A stretch of 64,000 nt of DNA from positions 212,221-276,220 of the forward strand of contig JAXLWK010000004.1 of assembly GCA_046328525.1 (NCBI GenBank). The letters are read 5' to 3'. Positions 1,942-64,000 of this stretch are shown piece after piece; position 1 is the first letter of the stretch; the number at the start of each line of letters is the position of its first letter. Source of the stretch: Anaerolineae bacterium. GTDB lineage: Bacteria; Chloroflexota; Anaerolineae; Epilineales; JAHCIE01. The position numbers were made by a program, and so were the translations under genes. The notes beneath the pieces are model-generated. The model did not search any database, was not told the origin of the DNA, and saw nothing but the letters and a program-made list of their open reading frames with translations.

Positions 1942-2064
1942 GCTGCGACCGCCTTGTTGTGCTCAAGCTGTCGTGTGCCGCGAAGCCGCCGGACCACGAC
2001 CGCCGCGAAAGGATGTCCTCGCCTGCTATCAACGGATAGGTAACGGATAAACAGATAGACTATC

Positions 2065-2338
2065 GTAGGCTGAAGCCTACGGCTAGGAATGCAAGCCCAA
2101 GGGGCTGCCGACGCCACAAGCCTCTCAGGCTTCCATTTTGTAGCCCGCTGCTTCAGCGGCGGGCGGCCCGACCCCGGAGCATCGCTTTGCGGCAGACCAC
2201 CGTAGGCTGAAGCCTACGGCTAGGAATGCAAGCCCAAGGGGCTGCCGACGCCACAAGCCTCTCAGGCTTCCATTTTGTAGCCCGCTGCTTCAGCGGCGGG
2301 CGGCCCGACCCCGGAGCATCGTTTTGCGGCAGCAGGAT
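2065..2338. repeat. Tandem duplication (2 x 137 bp) of a dispersed intergenic repeat (family A) bounded by the hairpin GTAGGCTGAAGCCTAC
   Basis: gtaggctgaagcctacggctaggaatgcaagcccaaggggctgccgacgccacaagcctctcaggcttccattttgtagcccgctgcttcagcggcgggcggcccgaccccggagcatcg occurs twice back to back. Related copies are at 7879-7987 (reverse), 35097-35207 (reverse) and 44965-45075, with a fragment at 23150-23200. Confidence 0.85.
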
Positions 2339-2358: not shown

Positions 2359-5195
2359 TTACCCGTTCTTATCCGTTGACAGCCCCTCCCCCATCGGCAG
2401 CGCGGCCTGGCCCTGGGCGGCGGCGCGCTGGAGGTTGAGCGCCAGCAGCCGCGCCAGGATGTCCTCGTCGCCGAGGTCGCGCGGCCAGCCGTAGGCGTCC
2501 AGGACGGCGGCGTCGAGCTTCTTGTGGGCCAGGTCGAGCCAGGCCGGGCGCGCGTTGTAGAGGTTCGTGAGGGTGCGCTTCTTAAGCTCGGCGTCTGAGG
2601 CGTCGGGCGGGTTGAGCCAGGCGTCGCGCTTCTCGACAAGCTCCCGCGCCGCCTGCGCGATGGCCCCGACGCGCGCGTCGTCCGGCGGCTCCTGGCCCGG
2701 CGGCCACGGGAACGGGAACGTCTCGAAAGTGGTCGTGGGCGTGTAGCGGAAGCCGCTTTCCGCTTCTCGAAGCTGCGTTCCCATGCGACGCGCCCATAGC
2801 TCGTGCAGCCTTGAGTGCAGGACGCCGAAGAAATAGTCATCGTCGCGCACGATAGCAATTGTTGCTGAATCTGCTAGGGTCTCACGGCTAACCCATGTGA
2901 AAATGCGGTGCTTGGAGACTCGGGGCGTAACTATGTACCGCTGCAATGAAAGAACGGCAGCTCGAAACGCCGGGCGTGGTTCCATATGAATCCACCACCG
3001 CTCCCGATACGCTGCCCGATTGTTTTTCAAGCGTTCGGGATAGACGTTAGATTGCACATGGGTAAAAGGCTGCTCGTAGAGCGCTGCGTCCTCTTCAGGC
3101 ATATCCACGCCAAAATCAACAATCCACATATAGCGAGGACGGCGCGTAATGTCAAGGCCGTTCGCCCACGGTCGAACCACGTCGCTGTTGGGGCGACCAT
3201 TCGGGTTGCCGACAGCCGCAAGCATCTGCTGCGCAACATCGTGCGGTATGTCGAACGCCCCCCCTTGGTGTCGCCCATGTACGCATGGTTGAAGTTCTCA
3301 GCCAGCCGTTGCGCTAACGTCAGATTGAGAGTACCGGTGAGATTCGGGTTGATAGCTTGCACAGTGTTATCATCAAGCGTGCGTTCAACCTCACTGCCCT
3401 TGTCGAAGCCAACCATCGAGACCTGAACGGCTGCTCCGCCCTGAATCCAGCGGCGGTCGCTCCAGGCCATGAAGACATCACCCGTTTCCTTGATTCTCTC
3501 AAGCACGCGGCGGTTGGCACCGCCGCGAATGGCTTGCGTCGCCAATAGGCCGGCGCGTTTGGCTGTGTCCGCCGCGATCATGGCGCGGGCCTTCTCGAAC
3601 CAGTAGGTCACCAGGTCGGCCTCACGCGGCACGCGGCCATCATAGAGCGTGAACAGGTCGTCAACATACTTGTCGCCCAACTCGGCGCGCAGGCGCTTGC
3701 CGCCGAGGAAGGGCGGGTTGCCGATGATGACGTCGGCGGCGGGCCAGGCCGGCTCGGCGGGGCGACCGGCGTCGTCGAAGGCCAGGATGGCGTCCATCTC
3801 GCGGATGTTGTCCAGCGGTTTTAGGATTGGCTCGCCCGGGAAACCGTAGCCGTTGTCGTGCAGCCACTGGAGGTAGCCGATCCACACCGTCGCCTGGGCC
3901 AGCTGCTGCGCGTACTCGTTGATCTCGATGCCGTAGAGCTGCTCGGGCGAGACGCGGGGGAAGAACGTGTTCAGCCCGACCTCGCCGGCGAAGGTGCTGA
4001 CCGTCTTTTCGAGGTCCAGCAGCTCCTTGAGGGCGACGTAGAGGAAGTTGCCGCTGCCGCACGCCGGGTCCAGCACCGTGATCGCCGTCAGCCGCTCCGC
4101 AAAGCCCATCACCAGCGCCGTTAGCTCGTTCTGGAGGCGCGTCCGCGCGGCGCCCGCCGCCCCGTCGCGCCGCCCGGCCAGCTCCCGCGCCCGCGCCTGC
4201 ACCTCCGCCCACTCGCGGCGCAGCGGGGTCATCAGCACCGGCTCGACAATCAAGAGGATGTCCTGGCGGCTGGTGTAGTGGGCGCCGAGCTGGGCGCGCT
4301 TGTCCGGGTCCAGGCTGCGCTCGAACAGCGTCCCGAACACCGACGGCTCGATGCTGGACCAGTCCAGCGCTGTGAGGCGGTCCAGGATGGCGAGGCCCTC
4401 GGAGCCCAGGTCGAGCGCGGCGGCGTCGTCGAACAGCCCGCCGTCGAAGTGGCGGATGGCGTCGTAGCCAAAGACACCGCCGCTGGACATGGCCTCGAAG
4501 AGCTGGCGCAGAGCGCCGCTGAACTGCGCCGGCCGCCCGCGGAGGTTGTGCACCAGGCGCGTGAACGCCTCGCGGGGGAGGAGGTCAATGTCCTCGGCGA
4601 ACAGGCAGAACAGCAGGCGGATGAGGAAGTGGGCGGCGGCGTGGGCGTCTGCGCCCTGCCCGCGCAGCAGGTCGGCCAGGTGGGCGAACTGGCGCGCGGC
4701 CTCCTGGGTGACGCTCTCCGGCGTCTGAGGCGTCTTGAAGGCGTCGGGATTGGTGAAGACGTCGCGCAGCCGCCGCAGGCCGTCCGGTGTGAGCAGGTCG
4801 TCCAGGGTGAGGATCACCTGCTGCTTGACGGTGTTGGTGAAGTTGGTGTGGACGACGATGCGCTCCATGTCGGAGACGACGAGGAGGGGCGGGTTCTCCA
4901 GCGCCTCGCGGTACTGGAGCAACTGCTGGTACGCCTTATCGAGGTTGGCGTGCCGCCCCTTGTACTCCCAGGCGAAGAAGCCGCGCTTGTACACGTCGGC
5001 CCAGCCCTGGCCGCCCTTCTGCTTGCTCGCGCCGGCCTCGAAGGTAAAGCGCGTGCCGGTCGGGTCGTCCTCGACCGGCGTGGGGTGGCCGACGAGGCGG
5101 CACAGGTCAATGAAGTGCTCCTGGTAGCCGGAGCGTTCCTTGACGGCGGTCTGCCGCCACTTGGCGACGAAGTCCTGGGGTGAGAGGTCGGGCAT
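2359..5195 (-). pseudogene. MmeI-family Type IIL restriction-modification enzyme (N-terminal PD-ExK nuclease, gamma-class N6-adenine methyltransferase, C-terminal target-recognition domain), split by a -1 frameshift in a G7 homopolymer at 3258-3264
   Basis: ORF 3027..5195 has an MmeI-like N-terminus (HFIDLCRLVG..., GWADVYKRGFFAWEYKGRHANLDKAYQQLLQY, LLVVSDMERIVV) and MTase motifs I (VLDPACGSGNFL) and IV (IIGNPPFLGG). Its frame degenerates after ...NHAYMGDTKGG. The downstream ORF 2359..3225 (MLAAVGNPNGRPNSDVVRPWANGLD...) continues the protein in the +1 frame. Inserting one G into the G7 run (C7 on the plus strand, 3258-3264) restores a continuous reading frame of about 946 aa (...GDTKGGAFDIPHDVAQQMLAAVGNPNG...). 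Confidence 0.75.
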
Positions 5196-5652: not shown

Positions 5653-7839
5653 ATGAGGCGAGGTATTGTGGCGCTGGCTGCGCTGCTGCTGGCGGTCGTC
5701 GCGGCGGCGGGGGGGCCGCGCCCGGCGGGGGCCGAGCTGCCCCAGCCCGACAAAGTCTTGTTTACGATCGGGTCGCAAGCACCCGTGGGTCAGTTCGATT
5801 ATCCGGGCGGCGTGGCCGTCGGGCGCGACGGCACGATCTACGTCGCCGACGCCATCAACAACCGCGTCCAACGCTTCGCCCCGAATGGGACGTTTGTGGG
5901 CGCGTGGGGCGAGCAGGGCGCGGGCGACGGCCAGTTCCAGCGCATCGGGGGCATCGCCGCTGCGCCCGACGGCTCGCTGGTCGTCACCGACATCGTCAAC
6001 GGCCGCGTGCAGCATTTCTCCGCCGCCGGCCTGTACCTCGGCCAGTTGGGGAGCGCAGGCAGCGGTGACGGGCAGCTCAACAAGCCGCGTGGCGTGGCCG
6101 TCGGACCCGACGGCACGGTCTACATCGCCGACACGTTCAACAACCGCATCCAGCGCTTCACGGCCGCCGGGGCCTACCTGGGCCAGTGGGGGACGCGGGG
6201 CGCCGGCGACATGCAGTTCAACCTGCCGCGCGGGGTCGCCGTGGCGGCCGACGGCACGGTGTATGTCGCCGATACGGCCAACGGGCGCATCCAGGTCTTC
6301 GACGCCGCCGGGACCTTCCGCGGGAAATGGGGCGCTGCCGGCGCCGATGATGGGCAGTTCATCTCGCCGACCGGTGTGGCCGTCGCCGCCGACGATACGC
6401 TGTACGTCGTGGACAGTAGCAACCACCGCGTGCAGCATTTCTCGACGTTCGGCGTGTTCCTGGACAAGTTCGGCGTCTACGGCCACACCATCGGCCAGCT
6501 TGCCGCGCCGGAGGGCGTCACCGTCGCCGGCGACGGAGCGATCATCGTCGCCGACACGTACAATCACCGCGTCCAGCGCTTCTGGAAGGACGGCAGCGTG
6601 CTGGGCGTCTGGGGCAGCCAGGGGATGTCGAGCACGCAGTTCGACCACCCGCAGGGCCTCTCAGTCGCGCCGGACGGGACGGTGTACGTCGCCGACACCA
6701 CCAATCACCGCATCCAGCGCTTCACCGGCGAGGGCCTTTTCTTCAGCAAGTTCGGCGGCGTCGGGAGCAAGCCGGGCCAGTTCCAGGGGCCGCAGGGCGT
6801 CGCCGTCGCCGCCGACGGCACGGTGTACGTGATTGACACCAACAACTACCGCATCCAGCGCTTCACTGCCGATGGCGCGCTCCTCGCCACCATCGGCGGC
6901 TTCGGGCACGGCGACGGGCAGTTCATGGTGCCGAACGGCATCAGCGTGGCGCCGGACGGCACGGTCTACGTCGCCGACGACAGCAACAACCGCATCCAGC
7001 ATTTCGCCGCCGATGGGACGTTCCTGGGCAAGTGGGGCAGCTTCGGGCGCGGCGACGGCCAGTTCCAGTACCCCCACGGCCCGGCCGCTGCGCCGGACGG
7101 CACGGTGTATGTCGCCGACACGGGCAACAACCGCATCCAGCATTTCGCGGCGGACGGGACGTTCCTGGGCAAGTGGGGCAAGGGCGGCGCCGGCGACGGC
7201 CAGTTCAACACCCCGCAGGGCCTGTCGGTCGCGGCGGACGGGACGGTGTTCGTGGCCGACTCGGGCAACAACCGCATCCAGCGCTTCGCCGCCGACGGGA
7301 CGTTCCTGGGCAAGTGGACCGGCGGCGACACGCCGCTGACCACGCCGCGCGGCATCGCTCTGACGCCCAACGGCCTGGCGTGGGTGACCGACACGGACAA
7401 CAGCCGCATCGTCGTGTTCGGGCCGGAGGCGCTCGACACGTGGCGCGGGGAGTACTACGCCAACCGCTGGCTCGCCGACGCCGCCGTCTTCATCCACAGC
7501 GACGACAACCTCGACCTGCTGTGGGTCGAAGGGTCGCCGGGCGGCGATGTGCCGTCGTCGAACTGGTCGGCCCGCTGGGAGCGCGTTGTGACGCTGGATG
7601 CGGGGCTGGGGGTGTTTACGGTGGAGGCGGACGGCGCGGTGCGCGTCTGGGTGGACGGCCGGCTCATCGCCCAGCGCAGCGCCGGGGCGGGGGCCATCAG
7701 CGGCTTCCTGCCCCTGGCGGCCGGCCCGCACCGGGTGCGGGTGGAGTACGCCCACGAGAGCGGCGCGGCGTCCGTCGCGGTGCGCTGGCAGACGACCACC
7801 GTCAATAGCTTCCTGTTCCTGCCCCACATCACGCGGTAG
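5653..7839 (+). CDS. Secreted NHL-repeat (six-bladed beta-propeller, ~12 repeats) protein with a C-terminal PA14 domain
   Basis: SD AGGAGGAG upstream. Signal peptide MRRGIVALAALLLAVVAAAG. Repeated units ...GVAVG.DGTVYVADT.NNRIQRF.... C-terminus WRGEYYANRWL...SARWERVVTLDAGLGVFTVEADGAVRVWVDGRLIA...AGPHRVRVEYAHESGAASVAVRW matches the PA14 pattern. Confidence 0.8.
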   Translation: MRRGIVALAALLLAVVAAAGGPRPAGAELPQPDKVLFTIGSQAPVGQFDYPGGVAVGRDGTIYVADAINNRVQRFAPNGTFVGAWGEQGAGDGQFQRIGGIAAAPDGSLVVTDIVNGRVQHFSAAGLYLGQLGSAGSGDGQLNKPRGVAVGPDGTVYIADTFNNRIQRFTAAGAYLGQWGTRGAGDMQFNLPRGVAVAADGTVYVADTANGRIQVFDAAGTFRGKWGAAGADDGQFISPTGVAVAADDTLYVVDSSNHRVQHFSTFGVFLDKFGVYGHTIGQLAAPEGVTVAGDGAIIVADTYNHRVQRFWKDGSVLGVWGSQGMSSTQFDHPQGLSVAPDGTVYVADTTNHRIQRFTGEGLFFSKFGGVGSKPGQFQGPQGVAVAADGTVYVIDTNNYRIQRFTADGALLATIGGFGHGDGQFMVPNGISVAPDGTVYVADDSNNRIQHFAADGTFLGKWGSFGRGDGQFQYPHGPAAAPDGTVYVADTGNNRIQHFAADGTFLGKWGKGGAGDGQFNTPQGLSVAADGTVFVADSGNNRIQRFAADGTFLGKWTGGDTPLTTPRGIALTPNGLAWVTDTDNSRIVVFGPEALDTWRGEYYANRWLADAAVFIHSDDNLDLLWVEGSPGGDVPSSNWSARWERVVTLDAGLGVFTVEADGAVRVWVDGRLIAQRSAGAGAISGFLPLAAGPHRVRVEYAHESGAASVAVRWQTTTVNSFLFLPHITR

Positions 7840-7878: not shown

Positions 7879-7987
7879 TCCGCCCGCCGCTGAAGCAGCG
7901 GGCTACGAATGGAAGCCTGAGAGGCTGAGGTTCCGGCTCCCCAGCCCCTTGGGCTTGCATCCTTAGCCGTAGGCTTGAGCCTACGGC
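7879..7987. repeat. Family A dispersed repeat, reverse orientation
   Basis: gtccgcccgccgctgaagcagcgggctacgaatggaagcctgagaggct...cttgggcttgcatccttagccgtaggcttgagcctacggc is the reverse complement of the 2065-2338 unit. Confidence 0.8.
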
Positions 7988-11397: not shown

Positions 11398-11487
11398 CGT
11401 CTACACGCCCGTACCTGCCGTGGGCCGCCTGTCCGCCCGCGGCTTTTTGTGTGTCAAGTCGGAGTCGTTGCGAGGAGCGCGCCTTTC

Positions 11488-11625
11488 GGGGGCGTGGGGG
11501 GCGAAGCTCCCCACTGGCGAAGCAATCTCGCGGTAGGTGTATGTAGGGGCAGGTTTGAAACCTGCCCCTACGGAGACGGGGGATTGCTTCGCTCCACTCG
11601 CAATGACGGTCTTATACTCAGGAGG
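11488..11625. repeat. Composite repeat: family C element (..gcgaagcaatctcgcgg...ggattgcttcgctccactcgcaatgacgg) enclosing the hairpin gtaggggcaggtttgaaacctgcccctac (family F)
   Basis: The same hairpin recurs at 49516-49546. The family C termini match 14714-14835 and 61588-61702. Confidence 0.7.
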
Positions 11626-17712: not shown

Positions 17713-17728
17713 CAGGGTCTTGTCTGAA

Positions 17729-18075
17729 GGTGGAGATGGCGGGAATTGAACCCGCGTCCCGAAAGCTGCACCGAAGGCGTCTACAAGCTTAGTCGTCTCC
17801 CGAGTTGTCGCGCTGGTCCATCTTAGCCGACCAAGCCGGATCCAGCGCCAGGCGACGGTCTTTCGCTTCCCTCATCGCCGTCGGGGAAGCGGCACTCCGG
17901 CTAAATGGTGCTGCTAACTAGACTGTCGGAGTGAGACTAGCGCAGCATCGCCACCCTTAGGCGGCGAGGGCCAATGGTTGATTGGCAGTTGTTGTTTTGC
18001 CCACTTTTTACGAGGATCAGGCGCCTCGGCTTGCAGCCCGCGATCTTCCCTCCCGGTCGAAACCATGTCATCCCC
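17729..18075 (-). ncRNA. ssrA: tmRNA (ssrA); encoded tag peptide ends ...ANQPLALAA
   Basis: The reverse complement begins GGGGATGACATGGTTTCGACCGGG... and ends ...GGACGCGGGTTCAATTCCCGCCATCTCCACC (tRNA-like T-arm/acceptor). The internal reading frame gcc aat caa cca ttg gcc ctc gcc gcc taa gives the canonical ALAA-ending tag. Confidence 0.85.
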
Positions 18076-30367: not shown

Positions 30368-31282
30368 TCAGTCGTGCTCGTGCTCCACGACGATGATGCG
30401 GGCGTTGACCTGCATCTGTGGCGACGCGCTGCTCGGATTGTACGTCCCGACCACGCGCACGCGCAGGTTCTCGGCGAGCTTCGCGTCCTTCGGCAGGATC
30501 ACCGCGCCGTGGTAGTGGACGATGGCCGTCTTAGCGCCGTCGTCGTAGCTCAGCGTGAAGGTCTCGTTCGTCGTATCCACGGCTCCCGCGATTTTGCCGT
30601 CCTCGTTGAAGAGGCGGGTGGTCGGCGGCGGGGGCGGCGGGGGGGCGCGGCGCACAACCTGGACGACATACGCCGGGTTGATCGCGCTGGGCGCCGGGTG
30701 ATCGTTATCCTCGGCCGCCGGCTTGGGCTTGGCCCACACGCTCACCCAGTCGCCCACCTTGATGTCGGCGAACGTCGGCGGGGTGTTGCTCGACTGCGGC
30801 ACGCGGAAGATGGTGCTGTTGTCCGTGGTGACCGCGGCCCCGTGCTCCTCCGAGCGGATCACGAACGTGGTGGTCGTCGGATATACCGCCGTCACCCGGC
30901 CCATCGCCGCCGGAACCGGCGGGACGACGGTCACCATGTCGGCGAGCCAGGTGTCGCTGTCGCTCGCCTTGTGGGCGTCCACCTCGACCCGCATGCCCGT
31001 CTTGAGATCGGTGAACTTGGCGTCGAGGTTGTCGTAGATGAAGTACTTGGTCTTGTCATCCACCGAGAACGTCCGCTCCGGACTTCCGGCGCGCTCCATG
31101 AGCGGCTGGATCGTGAAAGTGTGGGGGGTGGCTGTGCCGTCAATGCTCTTGATCGTGCCGATAGCGTGCATGCCCCGGTTGGGGTGATCGCCGGTGTCGG
31201 CCCACGCGACCGCGCCTAGCGCGGCGACGGCGGCGAAAGCCGCCAGCATGAACGCCACAGTCAGTCGTCGGATGTTGTGCAT
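30368..31282 (-). CDS. Secreted DUF5666-repeat protein
   Basis: Signal peptide MHNIRRLTVAFMLAAFAAVAALGAVAWA. Repeated ~70-aa modules (GTIKSIDGTATPHTFTIQ..., GRVTAVYPTTTTFVIRSEE..., GAVDTTNETFTLSYDDGA...). Confidence 0.55.
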   Translation of the reverse strand: MHNIRRLTVAFMLAAFAAVAALGAVAWADTGDHPNRGMHAIGTIKSIDGTATPHTFTIQPLMERAGSPERTFSVDDKTKYFIYDNLDAKFTDLKTGMRVEVDAHKASDSDTWLADMVTVVPPVPAAMGRVTAVYPTTTTFVIRSEEHGAAVTTDNSTIFRVPQSSNTPPTFADIKVGDWVSVWAKPKPAAEDNDHPAPSAINPAYVVQVVRRAPPPPPPPTTRLFNEDGKIAGAVDTTNETFTLSYDDGAKTAIVHYHGAVILPKDAKLAENLRVRVVGTYNPSSASPQMQVNARIIVVEHEHD

Positions 31283-35096: not shown

Positions 35097-35207
35097 GTCC
35101 GCCCGCCGCTGAAGCAGCGGGCTACGAATGGAAGCCTGAGAGGCTGCCGCTCCGGCTTCCCCAGCCCCTTGGGCTTCCATCCTTAGCCGTAGGCTTGAGC
35201 CTACGGC
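35097..35207. repeat. Family A dispersed repeat (reverse orientation)
   Basis: gcccgccgctgaagcagcgggctacgaatggaagcctgagaggct...ccttagccgtaggcttgagcctacggcg. Confidence 0.8.
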
Positions 35208-39306: not shown

Positions 39307-39397
39307 GCGGAGGGGGAGGGATTTGAACCCTCGACGGGGGGTTAAGCCCCCGTAGGCGCTTAGCAGGCGCCCGCACTAGACCTGGCTATGCGACCCC
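39307..39397 (-). tRNA. tRNA-Ser (anticodon GCU)
   Basis: The reverse complement is GGGGGGGTCGCATAGCCAGGTCTAGTGCGGGCGCCTGCTAAGCGCCTACGGGGGCTTAACCCCCCGTCGAGGGTTCAAATCCCTCCCCCTCCGCC. Long variable arm, anticodon loop CTGCTAA, T-arm GGTTCAAATCC. Confidence 0.8.
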
Positions 39398-39520
39398 CCC
39401 AGGCTGCGGAAGGTATTATAACACACTCCGGCGGCGTGGTCAAGCGATAGTGACGGGGTGACGGAGTGGCAAAGTGGCGTTCACATCGTCACTTCCTCAC
39501 ATCGTCACCCACTCTCACAA

Positions 39521-39610
39521 GGCGGAGGGAGAGGGATTCGAACCCCCGATGAGGACAAGCCCCATAACGGTTTTCAAGACCGCCGCATTCAACCGCTCTG
39601 CCATCCCTCC
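39521..39610 (-). tRNA. tRNA-Ser (anticodon UGA)
   Basis: The reverse complement is GGAGGGATGGCAGAGCGGTTGAATGCGGCGGTCTTGAAAACCGTTATGGGGCTTGTCCTCATCGGGGGTTCGAATCCCTCTCCCTCCGCC. Anticodon loop CTTGAAA, long variable arm. Confidence 0.85.
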
Positions 39611-44964: not shown

Positions 44965-45075
44965 CGTAGGCTCAAGCCTACGGCTACTCATGCAAGCCCA
45001 AGGGGCTGGCGGAGCCGGAGCGGCAGCCTCTCAGGCTTGCACTCGTAGCCCGCTGCTTCAGCGGCGGGCGGGCCT
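44965..45075. repeat. Family A dispersed repeat
   Basis: gtaggctcaagcctacggctactcatgcaagcccaaggggctggcggagccggagcggcagcctctcaggcttgcactcgtagcccgctgcttcagcggcgggcgggcc. Confidence 0.8.
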
Positions 45076-49890: not shown

Positions 49891-49912
49891 ACGCGCCTCA
49901 GGAGGTTTGCCG

Positions 49913-51355
49913 ATGCCTGAGTTAGTCTTGCCGGGAGTGTACATTGACGTCCGCGCCGAGGCCCTCATCGTCCCCGGCCCGATCACCGTGGGCAACATCG
50001 GGATCGTGGGCACCGCGAACCGTGGCCCCGTCGGCGAAGTCCAGGTGCTTAGCTCCTACGCCGACGCCCGCGCCATGTTCGGCGGCTACGACAAGTTCGA
50101 CGCGCCCGACACCGCCAACAACCCGTTGACCCTGGTGCGCGCCCTGGAGATCGCTTACTCCCACGGCGCGGCCACCGTGTTCGCCGTCCGCGTCGCGTCT
50201 AGCTCGGCTGCCGCCGCGAAGCCGGCGAGCAACATCGCCGGCACCAACGTCGGCCTCGAAGCCCTCTCGCCCGGCTCCTGGGGCAACGGCCTGACGGTGA
50301 CGGTCGGCGCCGCCGACACCGGCGGGAACATCCCCCTCACCCTCCGCCTGGGAAGCGCGGAGGAGACGTTCCTGGTCAAGACGGCCCAGGACATCGTGCA
50401 GCGCATCGGCGACGCGCGGAACGGCTCGCTCCTCGTCAAGACGGCGGTGACTGGCTCGCCGACCGGCAATGTCACGGCCGCCAGCGGGACCCCGACGCCC
50501 CTGCCGTTCAGCGGCGGCAAAGACGGGGCGGACGTGGCCGAGACTGACTACAAAGCCGGGCTGGAGCTTCTCCTCAACGAGAACGCCCAGATCATCCTCG
50601 CCGCCGGGCAGGACATCACCCAGGCCGGCGCCGACCTGAAGGCCCACGTCGAGGCGGCGTCCACCGACAAGATCAAGCGCGACCGCATCGCCGTCGTCGG
50701 CAGCGCGCCGGCCGGCAGTAACCCGTCGGCGTTCCTGACGAGCCTGCTCAGCCCGACCGTCACCGGCGACCGCGTCATCTTCGTCGCGCCGGGCATCAAG
50801 ACGGTGGACGCGGCGAAGGCGGCAGACCGCACCATCGCCGACCCGACGGTGACGCTGCCGGGCGCGTACTCGGCGGCGGCCATCGCCGGCATGCTCTCGG
50901 CGCGCGACCCGCACATCAGCCTGACCAACAAGACACTGAACGTGGCGGACCTGGAGGTACACTTCAACGCCGGCCAGCTCGAGCAGCTCGTGCAGAACGG
51001 CGTCCTCGGCCTCGAAGTCCGGCGCGGCGTGCGCGTCGTCAAGGGCATCACCACCGATCTCGGCCCGTTCCAGCAGATTACGACGCGGCGCATCGTGGAC
51101 TTCGCCAAGCTCGGCGTGCGCTCCGCGTGCGATCCCTTCATCGGCCTGCTCAACAACGACCGGGTGCGCCAGGCGCTCAAGGGCGCGATCAACGGCTTCC
51201 TGGCGGGCATGGTGGACGACGAGATGCTGGAGAGCTACGCCCTGGACGTGTCGGCCACGCGCGACCAGGAGATTCGCGGCATCGCCCAGGTCACGATGAC
51301 CCTGCGCCCGACGTTCAGCATTGACTACATCAAGGTAACGATGTTCCTCGGTTAA
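49913..51355 (+). CDS. Contractile tail sheath protein
   Basis: SD AGGAGG. MPELVLPGVYIDVRAEALIVPGPITVGNIGIVGTANRGP... is the canonical sheath N-terminus. ~480 aa. Confidence 0.8.
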   Translation: MPELVLPGVYIDVRAEALIVPGPITVGNIGIVGTANRGPVGEVQVLSSYADARAMFGGYDKFDAPDTANNPLTLVRALEIAYSHGAATVFAVRVASSSAAAAKPASNIAGTNVGLEALSPGSWGNGLTVTVGAADTGGNIPLTLRLGSAEETFLVKTAQDIVQRIGDARNGSLLVKTAVTGSPTGNVTAASGTPTPLPFSGGKDGADVAETDYKAGLELLLNENAQIILAAGQDITQAGADLKAHVEAASTDKIKRDRIAVVGSAPAGSNPSAFLTSLLSPTVTGDRVIFVAPGIKTVDAAKAADRTIADPTVTLPGAYSAAAIAGMLSARDPHISLTNKTLNVADLEVHFNAGQLEQLVQNGVLGLEVRRGVRVVKGITTDLGPFQQITTRRIVDFAKLGVRSACDPFIGLLNNDRVRQALKGAINGFLAGMVDDEMLESYALDVSATRDQEIRGIAQVTMTLRPTFSIDYIKVTMFLG

Positions 51356-51367
51356 GGAGACTGCCCC

Positions 51368-51877
51368 ATGGCGAACACCAATGTGTACACCGGGTCGGAC
51401 GCGACCCTCACCCTCGCCGTCGAGGCCGGCGCAGAGGGTGACGCGGCCAAAGAGATCATCGAGTTCTACGGCCTCAGTCCCGTCGGGCGCGCGACCAACG
51501 TCGAGGTGCTGGTGACGACCTCCGTGCAGCCGTTCCACGAGATCGGCCGCCGCCACCCGGCGTCCCTCAGCGAAGGCAACATTGACGTGACGGGCAAGAT
51601 CGGCCGCGCCTTCATCAACGGCGCTCTCCTGCGCCTAATGCTCGGCAAGGGCGCGCTGGTGGAGCGCAGCAACACCCCGTTCCCGCAGCCGTCCTTCAAC
51701 CTGCAATTGCTGGCGCGCAACCCGGCCCTCCCGGACACCAACAGCACCCTGACCATCCACGGCGTCAAGTTCGATAGCTGGGTGTTCAACCTGCCCGAGG
51801 ACGACTTCCTCATGGAGGGCGTGACGTTCAAGGGCCTGTTCATCACCATCGAGGACAAGGAAGCCACCGGAGGCTGA
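51368..51877 (+). CDS. Tail tube protein (gp19/FII-like)
   Basis: SD AAGGAGAC. 169 aa immediately after the sheath. MANTNVYTGSDATLTLAVEAGAE... Confidence 0.55.
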   Translation: MANTNVYTGSDATLTLAVEAGAEGDAAKEIIEFYGLSPVGRATNVEVLVTTSVQPFHEIGRRHPASLSEGNIDVTGKIGRAFINGALLRLMLGKGALVERSNTPFPQPSFNLQLLARNPALPDTNSTLTIHGVKFDSWVFNLPEDDFLMEGVTFKGLFITIEDKEATGG

Positions 51878-51882
51878 GCCGT

Positions 51883-52350
51883 ATGACCCTCACCGCTGAA
51901 GAGCTTCTGGCCGGTGGCGCGCTGACCCACGTCGTGGACCTACCGGCGGACCTGCTCAACACCCACGGCGGCGGGCCGGGCGGCCAGGTCATCCTGCGCC
52001 CGCTCACCGTGCGCGACCTCCAGCGCATCGGCAAGGCGGCCAGGGACGACGACAGCCTGTCCGCCGCGCTGATGGTGCAGCAGTCCCTCGTCGAGCCGCC
52101 GCTCAAGCTGGAGCAGGTCACGCAGCTGCCGGCCGGCGTGGCGCGCTTCCTCGTCGAGCGTGTCAACGCCATCAGCGGCATAGACACGCCCCGCGACGCC
52201 CTCGAAGAGCTGGTGCAGGCCCCGCTGGCGAAGGCGTGCTTCATCCTGGCCCGCGAGTTTGGCTGGACGCCCGAAGAGGTCAGCGGCATGACCATCGGCC
52301 AGATTCTGCTCTACCTGGAGATGGCCCGCGACGGGAGGGCAGGCGCATGA
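51883..52350 (+). CDS. Small protein in tail-assembly-chaperone position
   Basis: 155 aa between tube and the long Pro/Ala-rich protein. Stop/start ATGA overlap with the next gene. Confidence 0.3.
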   Translation: MTLTAEELLAGGALTHVVDLPADLLNTHGGGPGGQVILRPLTVRDLQRIGKAARDDDSLSAALMVQQSLVEPPLKLEQVTQLPAGVARFLVERVNAISGIDTPRDALEELVQAPLAKACFILAREFGWTPEEVSGMTIGQILLYLEMARDGRAGA

Positions 52351-53585
52351 GGCCGCGCCCACAGCCGCCGTTCCGGGCGGGCCTGGCCCTCGCCGCCTAT
52401 GGGCGGCAGATGGCGCGGCGCACCGCGTGGACCGCGTGTCTGATTCGCGGCAGCCGCTGGCTCGCGCCGCTCCTGGCTCCTCACCACCCGCTGCGCGCCG
52501 GCCCGCTGCTCGGACCGACCCTCGCCGCATTGGCGGCCGACGCCGATGGGCCGCCGGAGGAGCGGGCCGCGCCGCCCCGCCGCCAGGCGCAAGTGACGCC
52601 CACGCGGCCCGACGGGACCCCGCGCGGCCGCCCCGCCCCAATGGACACGGGGGCGGAGACGCCCGCCGCGTCCGGGACGCCAGGCCGCAACGCGGCGCGG
52701 GCCGCCGCTCCCCACCATCCGCCCGATGCTCCGACGCCTTCGCGCCTCGCTGCCCGCGTGGCCGAGCTGCCGCGCCAGGCGTCCCCGGCGCTGCTGGCAG
52801 GGTTCGCGGGCGCGGCGTCGCGGGCGGTGAGCCGCGCCCCACGGACCGACGCCCCCGGCGCGGCGTTGGGGCCGGGGAGCCGACTCCAGGCGGACGGCGT
52901 CGGTGGGGTCAGCCCCAGGCCGAGTGGCGTGGTCTGGCCGGCGGCCGACGGGCCGGCGGGCCGCGACTGGGCAGCGACCCCGATCGAGCGCGTGATAGGC
53001 GCTGTGCAGGCCGCTGGCGGTGGGCGCGACGCGGGACAGCTCCCCGTCTCAGCCGCGTCGTTCGAGGCGGCGTTGTCCACGCGGCTGGACGGCCCAACTG
53101 CGCCGCTGTTCGTTCTGACGCGCTCGATCCAGCTGGCGTCCGATGCGTCCGCGGGCGACGCCGCGCCGAACCGGGCGGAGGCGGCGGCAGCGCCCCCGGT
53201 ATCGGATGCCCCGCGCCCCGCGCCCCTGCCGAGTCCGCCGCCGGCGCGGCCCGCTACCAACCCGCCTCTGCGGACCGACGGCGGCGCGCCCTTCGCGCCC
53301 TCGCTGTGGGGGATGCTGGACTACCCAGTCGCGGCGTCGGCGTTCGCTCCGCCCGGACCGGACCCGGAGACGACGGTGCGCGTCGTCAACCCAACCCTGG
53401 CGCCGCGGCTGCCGTTCCTGACGCCCTCGGAGCCGGGCGGGCCGCCCGACCTGCCGCTGGCGGCGGCGACGGCGCGGCAGGGGGCATGGGCTGAGGCGGC
53501 GGGCGAGGACGACCTGGAGGCGTTGGCCGCGAAGCTCAAGCGCATCCTGAACGAGGAGGCGCGGCGGCATGGGATAGGGGTGTGA
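52347..53585 (+). CDS. Pro/Ala-rich low-complexity protein (412 aa) with a conserved-looking C-terminal helix; occupies the tape-measure position
   Basis: MRPRPQPPFRAGLALAAYGRQMARR... ...DDLEALAAKLKRILNEEARRHGIGV. Functional assignment is by position only. Confidence 0.35.
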   Translation: MRPRPQPPFRAGLALAAYGRQMARRTAWTACLIRGSRWLAPLLAPHHPLRAGPLLGPTLAALAADADGPPEERAAPPRRQAQVTPTRPDGTPRGRPAPMDTGAETPAASGTPGRNAARAAAPHHPPDAPTPSRLAARVAELPRQASPALLAGFAGAASRAVSRAPRTDAPGAALGPGSRLQADGVGGVSPRPSGVVWPAADGPAGRDWAATPIERVIGAVQAAGGGRDAGQLPVSAASFEAALSTRLDGPTAPLFVLTRSIQLASDASAGDAAPNRAEAAAAPPVSDAPRPAPLPSPPPARPATNPPLRTDGGAPFAPSLWGMLDYPVAASAFAPPGPDPETTVRVVNPTLAPRLPFLTPSEPGGPPDLPLAAATARQGAWAEAAGEDDLEALAAKLKRILNEEARRHGIGV

Positions 53586-54133
53586 CGATGCGACCGATGT
53601 TGGATGACCTGGAGCTGCCGCAGGTGCAGGAGATTGCGACCGTCGAGCGCCGTAGCCTGGCCGAGCACAAGCCGCCCGGCATGGACGGCAGCCTGTTGCA
53701 GAACCTGGGGCGGCGGCCGACGCGCCTGGCCCTGTGGGGCGTGGCGACCGGCCCCGACGCGCGGGCGTTTCTCGAAAAGCTCGACGGCAAGCTCCGCGAC
53801 GGCAAGCCCGTGCCGTTCACGGCCGACATCATCGCCGACGCCGCGATTGACCAGGTCGTGATTGACGATATGCAGGTACAGGAGCTGGCAGGAAAGCCGG
53901 ACCGCTTCGCCTACGTCCTCACGTTGCGCGAGTACATCGAGCCGGTCGAGCCGCAGGACACGTCGGCGCTGGACACGGACATCCTGGGCGCCGCGACGAA
54001 GCTCATCGAAGACATGGTGCCCGGCCTGGACCTGGGCCTGAACCTGACGACGGGCCTGGAACAGTTCATCGCCCCGTTGAGCGACCTGCTCGGACGCTTG
54101 CAGGCGGCCAACCGCAGCATGGGACGCAGTTAG
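53582..54133 (+). CDS. Tail-cluster protein, paralog A (unknown function)
   Basis: (V)TMRPMLDDLELPQVQEIATVERRSLAEHKPPGMDGSLLQNLGRRPTRLALWGVATGPDA... is homologous to 54594..55220. Confidence 0.45.
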   Translation: MTMRPMLDDLELPQVQEIATVERRSLAEHKPPGMDGSLLQNLGRRPTRLALWGVATGPDARAFLEKLDGKLRDGKPVPFTADIIADAAIDQVVIDDMQVQELAGKPDRFAYVLTLREYIEPVEPQDTSALDTDILGAATKLIEDMVPGLDLGLNLTTGLEQFIAPLSDLLGRLQAANRSMGRS

Positions 54134-54151
54134 AGAGAAGGAGCACGAGAC

Positions 54152-54574
54152 ATGGCAACGACACCGACCAACCTGTTCGAGGACCTGAAGTCGGCGCTCA
54201 CGACCTTCAAGACCTTCCTGGACCAGAACGTTCCGACCATCAAGCCCGCCATCCAGGCCCTGCGCTCGCTGATCCCGCAGATCACTGACCTGCTCAACAA
54301 GCTGGTGGACCTGATGAACAGCATCAAGACGGAAGTGGATCGCCTGGCGAGCCAGCCGATTCCGGGCGTGGACAAGGTGAGCCAGTTCACCCAGGGCATC
54401 ACGTCCCTGCTGACCACGGCCAAGAATCTGCTGCCCGACCAGGCCGGCACGATTGACGACGTGCTGTCGGTGGCCCAGGTCGTCGGCAGCCTGCCGTCGG
54501 TCGGCCAGATCAAGGCCGAGATTGACAGCCTGATTGACGCCGTCGTGACCCACCTGCGCAACCTGAACTCGTAG
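54152..54574 (+). CDS. Small alpha-helical protein (140 aa) in the tail cluster
   Basis: SD AAGGAG. MATTPTNLFEDLKSALTTFKTFLDQNVPTIKPAIQALRSLIPQITDLLNKLVDLMNSIKTEVDRL... Confidence 0.4.
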   Translation: MATTPTNLFEDLKSALTTFKTFLDQNVPTIKPAIQALRSLIPQITDLLNKLVDLMNSIKTEVDRLASQPIPGVDKVSQFTQGITSLLTTAKNLLPDQAGTIDDVLSVAQVVGSLPSVGQIKAEIDSLIDAVVTHLRNLNS

Positions 54575-54593
54575 TCTCGCGGCGAGGACTTCC

Positions 54594-62567: not shown

Positions 62568-64000
62568 ACGGCGCAACCCTGAACCTCATCGAGCGGCCCT
62601 ACGCCGAGGTCGTGGACGACATCCTGACGGCCATCGTCGGCGGCGTGGTCAACGAGCCGATCTTCTTCGACCTCAAAGAGGACAGCTACCGCCTGTCTCA
62701 ACCGGCCAGCGACGTGCGCTCCATCACCGGCGCGCGCACCCCGCCCGGCGCGGCGGACGCGCAGCACGTCGCGTTCCAGAAGGGGCAGGACTTCGACTTC
62801 GACAGCGTCGCCAACACGGTCATCTGGCGGCCGAAGGGCGCGCACCCCGACGACGAGACGACGTTCTACGTGGACTACTTCCTGCGCGACGCCAACCCGC
62901 CGCTGACCGACATCAACGTCGGCAGCGTGACGCGCACCCTCAGCGAGGCCATCAGCGTCGAGATCGCCACGGTCTACCAGCAGATTAACCAGGCCTACCT
63001 GGCCGGGTTCATTGACACCGCGGCCGGCAAGTCCCTGGACCTGGTCGTGTCCATCCTCGGTGTGACGCGCAAGACGGCCGAGTACGCCCAGGGCCTGGCG
63101 ACGTTCTACCGCGACCCGGCGGTGCAGGGCGTCGTCACCATCGCCGAGGGCCTGAGCCTGAGCACCGACAAGGGCGTGACCTTCGTCACCAGCGAGCTGC
63201 GCACCATGCAGCGCGGCCAGGTGCGCATTGACGTGCCCATCCGCGCGACGGACGCCTCGAAGGGGCCGCTCGGCCAGGTCGGGCCGAACACCATCACCAC
63301 CCTGGCGCAGCCGCTGGCCGGCATCGGCCGCGTGACCAACCTCGAAGCGACCCAACTCGGCGCGGAGGCCGAAACCGACGAGCAACTGCGCGCCCGCGCC
63401 CGCGCCGTCCTGCGCGGCCTGGGCAAGGCGACCCTGGCGGCGCTCATCCAGGCGCTGTTCGATGCCCGCGCCAACCTGCTCGAAGTCTGGGACCCCAACG
63501 GTCCACCCGGCAAGACCCCGCCCGCCGCCGGCATGGTGACGCTGCTCATTGACACGCCGCCGGAGCGGTTCGCCGACGCCCAGGGCCGTGTCGAGGAGAC
63601 GCGGGCGGCCGGCGTCCAGGCGACCCTCGTCGCCAAGTACATTTTCTTCCGGCCGCGCCTCGTCATCCGCGCCACCCGCGACCTGACGCCCGACGGCAAG
63701 CTCAAGCTGGTCGGCCAGGTGGTCGAGGCGCTGGGCGGCGTGGCCGACACGCTGACGGCCGGCCAGCCAGCGAAGGGCAAGGAGCTGCTCGACGCGGTCA
63801 AGAAAGTACCGGACGTGGCGGGCGACGGCGCGAACGCCCCGCGCTTCGTGGACGTGATGGCCTGGCAGTCCGACATCGGCCAGCCGGCCGCCGCAACGCT
63901 CGTCAATGCCCTCGTGGACGCCGTCGCCGCGACGCCCACCGACGCGGACGCCCTGCGCGCCGCCTTCACCCGCATCGTGAACGACAGCGGGCCGGTCGCC
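62564..64000 (+). CDS. Baseplate J-like (gpJ/gp6) protein, 3' end beyond the window
   Basis: GTG start overlapping the gp25 stop (GTGA). VNGATLNLIERPYAEVVDDILTAIVGGVVNEPIFFD... ...GPNTITTLAQPLAGIGRVTNLEATQLGAEAETDEQLRARARAVL are typical Baseplate_J motifs. Confidence 0.7.
   Translation, partial: MNGATLNLIERPYAEVVDDILTAIVGGVVNEPIFFDLKEDSYRLSQPASDVRSITGARTPPGAADAQHVAFQKGQDFDFDSVANTVIWRPKGAHPDDETTFYVDYFLRDANPPLTDINVGSVTRTLSEAISVEIATVYQQINQAYLAGFIDTAAGKSLDLVVSILGVTRKTAEYAQGLATFYRDPAVQGVVTIAEGLSLSTDKGVTFVTSELRTMQRGQVRIDVPIRATDASKGPLGQVGPNTITTLAQPLAGIGRVTNLEATQLGAEAETDEQLRARARAVLRGLGKATLAALIQALFDARANLLEVWDPNGPPGKTPPAAGMVTLLIDTPPERFADAQGRVEETRAAGVQATLVAKYIFFRPRLVIRATRDLTPDGKLKLVGQVVEALGGVADTLTAGQPAKGKELLDAVKKVPDVAGDGANAPRFVDVMAWQSDIGQPAAATLVNALVDAVAATPTDADALRAAFTRIVNDSGPVA

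What the first reader, a model, noticed from the sequence alone, without database searches (positions are those of the whole stretch)
2359..5195. MmeI-family Type IIL restriction-modification enzyme inactivated only by a frameshift in a G7 tract (possible phase variation)
Seen in sequence: N-terminal MmeI-like nuclease motifs (D...EYK), MTase motifs VLDPACGSGNFL and IIGNPPFLGG, and a C-terminal TRD, in two overlapping ORFs. Adding one G to the GGGGGGG run (plus-strand C7 at 3258-3264) yields an uninterrupted ~946-aa protein. The surrounding sequence shows no other lesions. Established knowledge: MmeI-family enzymes are single-chain RM systems; homopolymeric-tract slippage is a classic ON/OFF switch for RM and methyltransferase genes (phasevarions). 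Inference: the gene may be phase-variable, a sequencing or assembly indel, or a very recent pseudogene. The gene is flanked upstream by a tandemly duplicated repeat element (2065-2338), suggesting an accessory island.
Basis: partly seen in the sequence, partly recalled or inferred. Interest (0 to 1): 0.55.

Follow-up and report, generated by a model that had tools for sequence, protein, structure and literature searches.

The report
Frameshifted MmeI-type restriction-modification gene
A single-protein restriction-modification gene of the MmeI family in an uncultured Anaerolineae genome is broken by one missing G in a run of Gs, which is an ordinary kind of lesion that the sequence alone cannot tell apart from a recent mutation, an ON/OFF switch, or an assembly error.

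Summary
Two overlapping minus-strand ORFs (3027-5195 and 2359-3225) become one 945-aa MmeI-family Type IIL/IIG enzyme when one G is added to the G7 run (plus-strand C7, 3258-3264). This is the only lesion found. All 64 family-conserved positions after the break are retained, and about 40 other genes in the window look intact.

The source is an NCBI Anaerolineae MAG. The gene sits among housekeeping genes and is syntenic with an intact ortholog in a related MAG, so it is not in an accessory island. The cited "island" repeat is a dispersed intergenic repeat with five copies in the window, and it lies 3' of the gene.

About 68 homologs with the same K-G-G motif were checked, and none has a G-run longer than 5 there, so the tract is an accident of codon choice. 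Even so, G8/G7 is the documented phase-variation switch of the MmeI-like pglX gene of Streptomyces coelicolor.

Most likely this is a recent G8-to-G7 slippage that may be reversible (about 0.55). A consensus error (about 0.3) cannot be excluded without reads. A selected switch is unproven.

Side observation: the TRD segment differs from the ortholog's, and synonymous GC is low across this segment in the whole family.

The parts
2359..5195 (-). Complete MmeI-family Type IIL/IIG restriction-modification gene, interrupted by a -1 frameshift. The repaired product is 945 aa.
3027..5195 (-). ORF1, 722 aa: nuclease, helical spacer, methyltransferase and the first residues of the TRD (646 in-frame residues), followed by a 76-aa out-of-frame tail. 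Identical to NCBI protein MFN8483098.1.
2359..3225 (-). ORF2, 288 aa: the rest of the TRD plus the C-terminal helical domain. It starts at an internal Met, and no obvious ribosome-binding site was seen by eye.
3258..3264 (-). G7 run on the coding strand (C7 on the plus strand) inside AAG GGG GGG (G)CG, which encodes the conserved K-G-G-A. G8 would restore the frame. It ties for the longest homopolymer in the window, which has no run of 8 or more.
4959..4997 (-). Nuclease catalytic motif D-X9-E-X-K, aligned with D70/E80/K82 of MmeI.
4041..4076 (-). Methyltransferase motif I (VLDPACGSGNFL).
3699..3728 (-). Methyltransferase motif IV (IIGNPPFLGG). The divergent, low-GC3 segment begins right after it.
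2797..3698 (-). Divergent specificity segment (aa about 500-800). It is 50-70% nucleotide-identical to the syntenic ortholog, against 88-98% in the flanks, and its GC3 is 0.5-0.7 against about 0.95. It contains the frameshift.
2057..2330 (+). Tandem pair of a 137-nt three-hairpin intergenic repeat, 98-99% identical, lying 3' of the gene. Further copies are at 7880-7985(-), 35099-35205(-) and 44965-45071(+).
2370..2383 (.). Right arm of an inverted repeat (left arm 2025-2038) that brackets the tandem repeats. It overlaps the gene's last codons; the stop codon at 2359-2361 lies just outside the arm.

Best explanation
This is a chromosomal, stand-alone MmeI-family (Type IIL/IIG) gene in which nuclease, methyltransferase and specificity domain form one polypeptide. 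In the sequence as given it is switched off by loss of one G from a G8 run (AAG GGG GGG GCG, encoding K-G-G-A) at the start of the target-recognition domain. The result is a 722-aa product without a specificity domain. The run is an accidental product of GGG-GGG codon choice at a conserved Gly-Gly motif. It is slippage-prone, so the lesion is most likely a very recent replication-slippage mutation. In principle it can revert, but nothing shows that it is a selected switch. Shown: the gene's identity, the single lesion, the lack of further decay, the chromosomal synteny, and the uniqueness of the tract. Inferred: that G7 is in the cells rather than only in the consensus, and that slippage caused it.
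For: - **Identity.** Pfam gives the four MmeI domains above cut-off. phmmer to MmeI structure 5HR4 gives E = 8e-53 with the D/E/K motif aligned. PADLOC REase_MTase_IIG gives E = 1.5e-276.
- **Repair.** One added G gives a 945-aa ORF.
- **No decay.** 214/216 conserved columns are kept, 64/64 after the break. The 140 nt upstream of the start still aligns with the ortholog.
- **Intact ortholog.** A syntenic intact ortholog, P0001 (80% identity), exists in L001.
- **Assembly quality.** About 40 other genes in the window give full-length Pfam matches and no second frameshift. Two other coding G7 runs (5709-5715 and 30639-30645) are in frame. The assembly is therefore not riddled with homopolymer indels.
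- **Precedent.** In S. coelicolor pglX, G8 to G7 contraction switches the system off at 1e-2 to 1e-3, and it reverts at 1e-3 to 1e-4 (PMC4365076).
- **Real lesions in the family.** Natural lesions occur in relatives. The same frameshift is present in contigs from two independent samples (L149 from JGI, L150 from Logan), and L148 has two nonsense codons.
Against: - The source is a MAG, with a 634-kb contig. The relative's contig naming hints at a highly contiguous, possibly long-read assembly, but this is unverified.
- The putative true G8 would be the longest homopolymer in the window, which has no run of 8 or more. That is exactly where a residual consensus error would fall.
- No reads and no independent assembly of this lineage could be found.
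- Complete absence of decay is equally expected if the gene is really intact.
Confidence: 0.55

Rival explanations
1. Consensus or assembly indel: the cells carry G8 and an intact, active enzyme, and the MAG consensus dropped one G in its longest homopolymer.
For: - The source is a MAG with very long contigs.
- No run of 8 or more survives anywhere in the 64 kb.
- The gene shows no decay at all.
- The lesion lies exactly in a homopolymer.
Against: - No other frameshift was seen in about 40 genes, although the window has 20 six-base and 6 seven-base G/C runs. The per-tract error rate must therefore be low.
- Real frameshifted MmeI-family genes do exist in independent samples.
Confidence: 0.3
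2. Evolved contingency locus: the G tract is maintained by selection as a reversible ON/OFF switch, and G7 is the OFF phase. The switch trades phage defence and methylation state against cost or DNA uptake.
For: - The tract lies in-frame in a gene class with proven SSR switches: cj0031 with G9 (PMC4889913), H. pylori JHP1272 and HP1353-54 (PMC3936762), and S. coelicolor pglX with G8/G7 (PMC4365076).
- It is the only lesion.
- Because restriction and modification are in one chain, switching OFF is not suicidal (this rests on knowledge of the family).
Against: - The tract is absent from all 80 species-representative homologs, where the longest G run at the site is 5. The 25 or so with the same KGG peptide use GGC/GGT/GGA codons.
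- It is also absent from about 43 metagenomic homologs that have identical flanks.
- Long homopolymers are depleted in this genome window, with none of 8 or more, so there is no sign of a general contingency-locus strategy.
- No population data exist.
Confidence: 0.12
3. Recoding: the full-length enzyme is made from the G7 allele, either by -1 ribosomal frameshifting on G GGG GGG (formally an X XXY YYZ heptamer in the zero frame, which would yield K-G-G-A-F-D) or by transcriptional slippage.
For: The heptamer is in the right frame, and a -1 shift reproduces the conserved peptide exactly.
Against: - The downstream 58-118 nt fold no better than shuffled sequence, with z from -0.15 to +0.70.
- No homolog has this arrangement.
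- From general knowledge, all-G heptamers are not known as efficient bacterial slippery sites.
Confidence: 0.03

Closest known systems
MmeI (Methylophilus methylotrophus), Type IIL restriction-modification enzyme, PDB 5HR4
   Same: Same single-chain architecture: N-terminal D-X9-E-X-K nuclease, helical spacer, gamma-class N6-adenine methyltransferase (motifs I and IV), TRD and C-terminal domain.
   Different: It is only a distant relative. phmmer aligns aa 56-598 and 754-905, while the TRD core (about aa 600-750) is not alignable, so the specificity is unknown and presumably different. The gene is frameshifted here.
PglX of the Streptomyces coelicolor Pgl (BREX-type) system, with its G8/G7 phase-variable tract
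   Same: An MmeI-like methyltransferase gene in a high-GC organism, with an in-frame G8 run whose contraction to G7 switches the system off (PMC4365076).
   Different: PglX has no nuclease domain and works with PglW, PglY and PglZ. The window protein scores 27 bits against a 900-bit cut-off for NCBIfam PglX and has no BREX neighbours. Switching has not been demonstrated here.
Phase-variable Type IIG enzymes: C. jejuni Cj0031 (G9), H. pylori JHP1272 and HP1353-HP1354 (C tracts)
   Same: Fused restriction-modification-specificity enzymes that a homopolymer slip splits into two ORFs. In cj0031 the tract is also missing from other alleles (PMC4889913, PMC3936762).
   Different: Those are host-adapted pathogens with many contingency loci, longer tracts and experimental proof. 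This is an environmental Anaerolineae MAG with one G7 tract and no population data.
Intact syntenic ortholog P0001 (MFN8476027.1) in Anaerolineae MAG STL-CHL22 (L001)
   Same: Same locus (NHL-repeat gene, MmeI gene, Amidohydro_2 gene). Nucleotide identity is 88-98% over aa 1-490 and 800-945.
   Different: The aa 500-790 segment is a different allele (50-70% nt, 42-60% aa identity). It reads MGASPKGPFDI where the window has MGDTKGGAFDI, so it has no G tract, and it is uninterrupted.

Membership tests
MmeI-family Type IIL/IIG restriction-modification enzymes | N-terminal PD-(D/E)XK nuclease with D-X9-E-X-K | tested here: met
   DVYKRGFFAWEYK (aa 67-79) aligns to D70/E80/K82 of 5HR4. Pfam MmeI_N scores 49.9 bits against a 27-bit cut-off.
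MmeI-family Type IIL/IIG restriction-modification enzymes | Helical spacer plus gamma-class N6-adenine methyltransferase with motif I and NPPF motif IV | tested here: met
   Pfam MmeI_hel 52.9 bits and MmeI_Mtase 92.6 bits. The motifs are at aa 374-385 and 490-499.
MmeI-family Type IIL/IIG restriction-modification enzymes | Fused TRD and C-terminal domain | tested here: inconclusive
   MmeI_TRD scores 35.3 bits, above the 27-bit cut-off. MmeI_C scores 22.7 bits, below 27. PADLOC REase_MTase_IIG model PDLC03599 aligns over aa 7-939.
MmeI-family Type IIL/IIG restriction-modification enzymes | One uninterrupted polypeptide carrying R, M and S functions | tested here: not met
   As sequenced, the frame breaks after aa 646. 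The feature is met only after adding one G.
MmeI-family Type IIL/IIG restriction-modification enzymes | Stand-alone: no separate methyltransferase and no BREX or DISARM partners | tested here: met
   The neighbours are Macro-domain, Amidohydro_2, NHL-repeat, Ig-like, QueA and ABC-transporter genes. The only PADLOC hit among the three neighbours tested is a weak, partial PD-T4-6 match in the NHL-repeat protein.
MmeI-family Type IIL/IIG restriction-modification enzymes | Cleavage about 20/18 nt from an asymmetric site, with one-strand m6A modification | not testable with these tools
   Needs enzyme assays or a methylome.
Phase-variable (contingency) restriction-modification locus | Hypermutable simple-sequence repeat inside the reading frame | tested here: met
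   A G7 run at 3258-3264. The G8/G7 length matches the proven pglX switch (PMC4365076).
Phase-variable (contingency) restriction-modification locus | Repeat-length polymorphism within or between populations, with reversible ON/OFF states | not testable with these tools
   There are no reads. No second assembly of this lineage was found.
Phase-variable (contingency) restriction-modification locus | Tract retained in related alleles | tested here: not met
   No G-run above 5 in any of 80 genomic homologs or about 43 metagenomic homologs. This is a weak criterion, because cj0031 fails it too (PMC4889913).
BREX PglX methyltransferase | Match to PglX models and a BREX gene neighbourhood | tested here: not met
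   NCBIfam BREX_6_MTaseX scores 27 bits against a 900-bit cut-off. There are no brx or pglZ genes nearby. The protein also has a nuclease domain.
Programmed -1 ribosomal frameshift site | Slippery heptamer plus a downstream stimulatory structure, conserved in relatives | tested here: not met
   The heptamer G GGG GGG is present, but the downstream fold has a z-score near 0 and the arrangement is absent from homologs.

The most novel reading that the evidence does not exclude
The G8/G7 run is a working ON/OFF switch of a stand-alone MmeI-type enzyme in a free-living, high-GC Chloroflexota (Anaerolineae) population. That would mirror the G8/G7 switch of Streptomyces pglX and would extend SSR-based phase variation of fused restriction-modification enzymes beyond host-associated pathogens. 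It may be tied to the allelic turnover of the specificity segment in which the tract sits.
Probability: 0.12. Interest if true: 0.4.

Novelty: new member of a known kind. Interest (0 to 1): 0.2.

Why it matters
The finding matters little by itself. Frameshifted restriction-modification genes at homopolymers are common, and phase variation of fused Type IIG enzymes and of PglX is already documented. If reads showed mixed G7/G8, it would be a clean example of a contingency locus in an environmental Chloroflexota, and it would come with a new, testable specificity because the TRD is at most 71% identical to anything in the databases. The more general point lies outside the finding. MmeI-family genes across phyla show a sharply bounded drop in synonymous GC over the specificity segment. 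That pattern bears on how specificity modules are exchanged or kept divergent.

Tried and rejected
- **Independent assemblies of the same lineage.** Exact look-ups of the 722-aa ORF, the 288-aa ORF and the neighbouring 267-aa amidohydrolase found nothing on record. The protein cluster has a single member.
- **Metagenome scan for tract-length variants.** A scan with both flanks and a 5-11 nt gap found 66 matches. None belongs to this lineage, none has G7 or G8, and all family matches have an 8-nt in-frame gap.
- **Sequencing technology of the source MAG.** Literature searches on isolate and accession names found nothing.
- **Programmed frameshifting.** The downstream RNA folds no better than shuffles.
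- **Accessory-island reading.** Rejected. The locus is syntenic with L001, the neighbours are housekeeping genes, and the 137-nt repeat is dispersed, with five copies in the window.
- **BREX or DISARM membership.** Rejected.
- **Silent TRD cassettes.** I considered that the short C-terminal MmeI fragments returned by the TRD-only search might be silent cassettes. The three I checked on long contigs are ordinary broken genes: a frameshift, nonsense codons, and a repeat insertion.
- **'Internal stops' in ten homologs.** These turned out to be the natural stop codons overrun by tblastn.
- **Rfam.** Only a tmRNA and two tRNAs were found elsewhere in the window.

Full report
**Observation**

The window has two overlapping minus-strand ORFs, 3027..5195 (722 aa) and 2359..3225 (288 aa). 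The plus strand reads C7 at 3258-3264. On the coding strand the context is AAG GGG GGG CGT TCG. Inserting one G gives AAG GGG GGG GCG TTC (K-G-G-A-F) and a single 945-aa ORF.

The repaired protein hits Pfam MmeI_N, MmeI_hel, MmeI_Mtase and MmeI_TRD above their gathering scores. MmeI_C falls just below its score. The protein matches the solved MmeI structure 5HR4 at E = 8e-53, with its D-X9-E-X-K aligned to MmeI D70/E80/K82. It also hits PADLOC's Type IIG REase-MTase models at E = 1.5e-276. It is not a BREX PglX, scoring 27 bits against a 900-bit cut-off.

**Source and context**

The 722-aa product is identical to NCBI protein MFN8483098.1, 'MAG: type IIL restriction-modification enzyme MmeI [Anaerolineae bacterium]', on a 634,618-bp contig.

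The best full-length relative is P0001 (MFN8476027.1), 80% identical, 960 aa and intact. It comes from what looks like the same submission batch (MAG STL-CHL22) and sits in the same gene order: NHL-repeat protein, MmeI, Amidohydro_2.

Pfam scans of about 40 other ORFs in the window give housekeeping functions, including QueA, an ABC transporter, GluRS, FtsW, SerRS and MazG. From about 49.9 kb onward there is a contractile-tail-like cluster. Rfam finds a tmRNA and two tRNAs. So the gene is a stand-alone chromosomal gene at a locus conserved in a relative, and it is not in a defence or accessory island.

It lies 3' of the gene. Further copies are at 7880-7985, 35099-35205 and 44965-45071, which makes it a dispersed intergenic repeat family.

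**Is the frameshift the only lesion?**

I aligned the repaired protein with 69 intact homologs taken from one genome per species. It keeps 214 of the 216 columns that are at least 95% conserved, including 64 of 64 after the break. Other family members miss 3.1 such columns on average. The 140 nt upstream of the start still aligns with the ortholog. The lesion is therefore very recent, reversible, or not real.

**Is it a consensus error?**

- Every other gene tested gives full-length domain matches, and I saw no second frameshift.
- The window holds 20 six-base and 6 seven-base G/C runs. Two of the seven-base runs lie in coding sequence and are in frame. Homopolymer errors are therefore not frequent in this assembly.
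- On the other hand, the window has no run of 8 or more. The inferred true G8 would be its longest homopolymer, which is exactly where a rare residual error would sit.
- I could not learn the sequencing technology.
- I could not find any independent assembly of this lineage.

This question stays open. I put the artefact at about 0.3.

**Is the tract conserved?**

The peptide around the site, (F/Y)MGDTKGG(A/P/S)FD, is a conserved family motif. Across 80 species-representative loci, no homolog has a G-run above 5 at this position. The 25 or so that share the K-G-G peptide use AAG GGC GGx or AAA GGT GGT codons.

A metagenome scan with both flanks fixed and a free gap of 5-11 nt returned about 43 family genes. 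All have an 8-nt in-frame gap and none has G7 or G8. The run is thus an accident of GGG-GGG codon choice in this allele, not an inherited feature.

This weakens the 'selected switch' reading but does not exclude it. The polyG of the phase-variable Type IIG gene cj0031 is also absent from its homologs (PMC4889913). In Streptomyces coelicolor, the MmeI-like pglX gene switches between G8 (ON) and G7 (OFF) at 1e-2 to 1e-4 (PMC4365076). H. pylori Type IIG genes also switch by homopolymer slippage (PMC3936762). Phase variation of this enzyme class is therefore known, and a G8/G7 tract is long enough to behave this way.

**Recoding**

G GGG GGG is formally a -1 slippery heptamer in the zero frame, and a -1 shift would reproduce K-G-G-A-F-D. 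However, the downstream RNA folds no better than shuffled sequence, with z from -0.15 to +0.70, and no homolog shares the arrangement. I give recoding about 0.03.

**Base rate of real lesions in the family**

Among the 80 species representatives, 79 are uninterrupted. L052 has a frameshift in an A/G run near aa 70. Three short C-terminal fragments on long contigs proved to be ordinary broken genes:

- L149 and L150 carry the same 1-nt frameshift in contigs from two independent samples, so that lesion is real.
- L148 has two nonsense codons.
- L151 has a tandem-repeat insertion.

Natural inactivation of these genes is common.

**Mosaic structure**

Against the syntenic ortholog, nucleotide identity is 88-98% and GC3 about 0.95 over aa 1-490 and aa 800-945. 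Over aa 500-790 identity is only 50-70% and GC3 is 0.5-0.7. This divergent stretch begins right after the NPPF motif and ends at the DDYFFGVLHS block. In this segment the window's allele is closer to those of Chloroflexales genomes (64-69% aa identity) than to its own ortholog (57%). The best TRD match anywhere is 71%. The two related genomes therefore carry different specificity alleles in the same framework, and the frameshift lies inside this variable segment.

The GC trough is not special to this gene. In 50 of 80 homologs, GC3 of the segment is more than 0.15 below that of the N-terminal part. A meta-profile of four-fold sites shows about 0.90 falling to 0.60 and back to 0.90 in high-GC hosts, 0.72 to 0.47 to 0.72 in mid-GC hosts, and 0.5 to 0.33 to 0.55 in low-GC hosts. 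The pattern is never reversed. For this reason I do not take low GC3 alone as proof of a recent import.

**Verdict**

The gene is a new, uncharacterised member of a known enzyme family. It carries a known kind of lesion at a slippage-prone run.

- My best reading is a recent G8-to-G7 slippage that leaves the enzyme off and may revert (0.55).
- A consensus error is the main rival (0.3).
- A selected phase-variation switch is possible but unsupported (0.12).

Read pile-ups at 3258-3264 would settle the matter. Interest is low.

Noticed in passing
Window 2797-3698, and loci L003-L081 (the MmeI-family gene in each): A family-wide, sharply bounded trough in synonymous GC over the specificity segment (query aa about 500-810, from just after NPPF to the DDYFFGVLHS block). 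Four-fold-site GC goes 0.90 to 0.60 to 0.90 in 35 high-GC hosts, 0.72 to 0.47 to 0.72 in 29 mid-GC hosts and 0.5 to 0.33 to 0.55 in 4 low-GC hosts, and is never reversed. It could reflect cassette exchange through an AT-richer mobile pool, or divergent alleles escaping GC-biased gene conversion.
   Followed up: partly
L031 8018-8191 and 9499-9707; L040 7395-7532 and 8400-8564; L042 7611-7898; L047 7616-7781; L050 7691-7870: Short duplicates of the 3' end of the MmeI-family gene (query aa about 855-930; near-identical to the resident gene's own 3' end where compared, in L040) lie 0.6-2.9 kb downstream on the same strand. Small inserted genes separate them; in L040 these are a 153-aa ORF and a pair that looks like an antitoxin plus PIN-type toxin (by eye). 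This looks like repeated integration into the gene's 3' end with target duplication.
   Followed up: partly
Window 2057-2330, 7880-7985, 35099-35205, 44965-45071: A dispersed intergenic repeat with a core of about 105 nt (137-nt unit) and three stable hairpins (z = -2.7 on the plus strand), once duplicated in tandem. It is absent from Rfam and from the related locus L001. A different small repeat family (window about 912-1089 and 11456-11607) has many copies in L001.
   Followed up: partly
Window 2025-2038 / 2370-2383 and 2359-2383: An inverted repeat rich in ACGGATA/TATCCGT heptamers brackets the tandem repeats. Its right arm encodes four of the last seven residues of the MmeI gene (LSTD of ...LSTDKNG; the remaining three codons and the stop lie just beyond the arm), which differ from the ortholog's C-terminus. 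An inserted element seems to have replaced the original 3' end.
   Followed up: no
Window about 49900-64000: A contractile-injection-system or phage-tail-like gene cluster that runs off the window end: tail sheath, a probable tube protein, a tail assembly chaperone, DNA_circ_N, a 1332-aa OmpA/PG-binding protein, baseplate hub and Baseplate_J.
   Followed up: no
L149 5860-5880 = L150 3990-4010; L148 4579-7299; L151 630-760: Other MmeI-family genes are inactivated by various lesions. One has an identical 1-nt frameshift in contigs from two independent samples (JGI and Logan), next to a phage integrase gene. One has two nonsense codons. One has a tandem insertion with a unit of about 22 nt in the variable loop before NPPF.
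   Followed up: partly
Window 17728-18075 (-), 39308-39400 (-), 39523-39610 (-): A tmRNA gene and two long-arm tRNA genes. One of the window's six 7-base homopolymers (39394-39400) lies at the end of a tRNA match.
   Followed up: no
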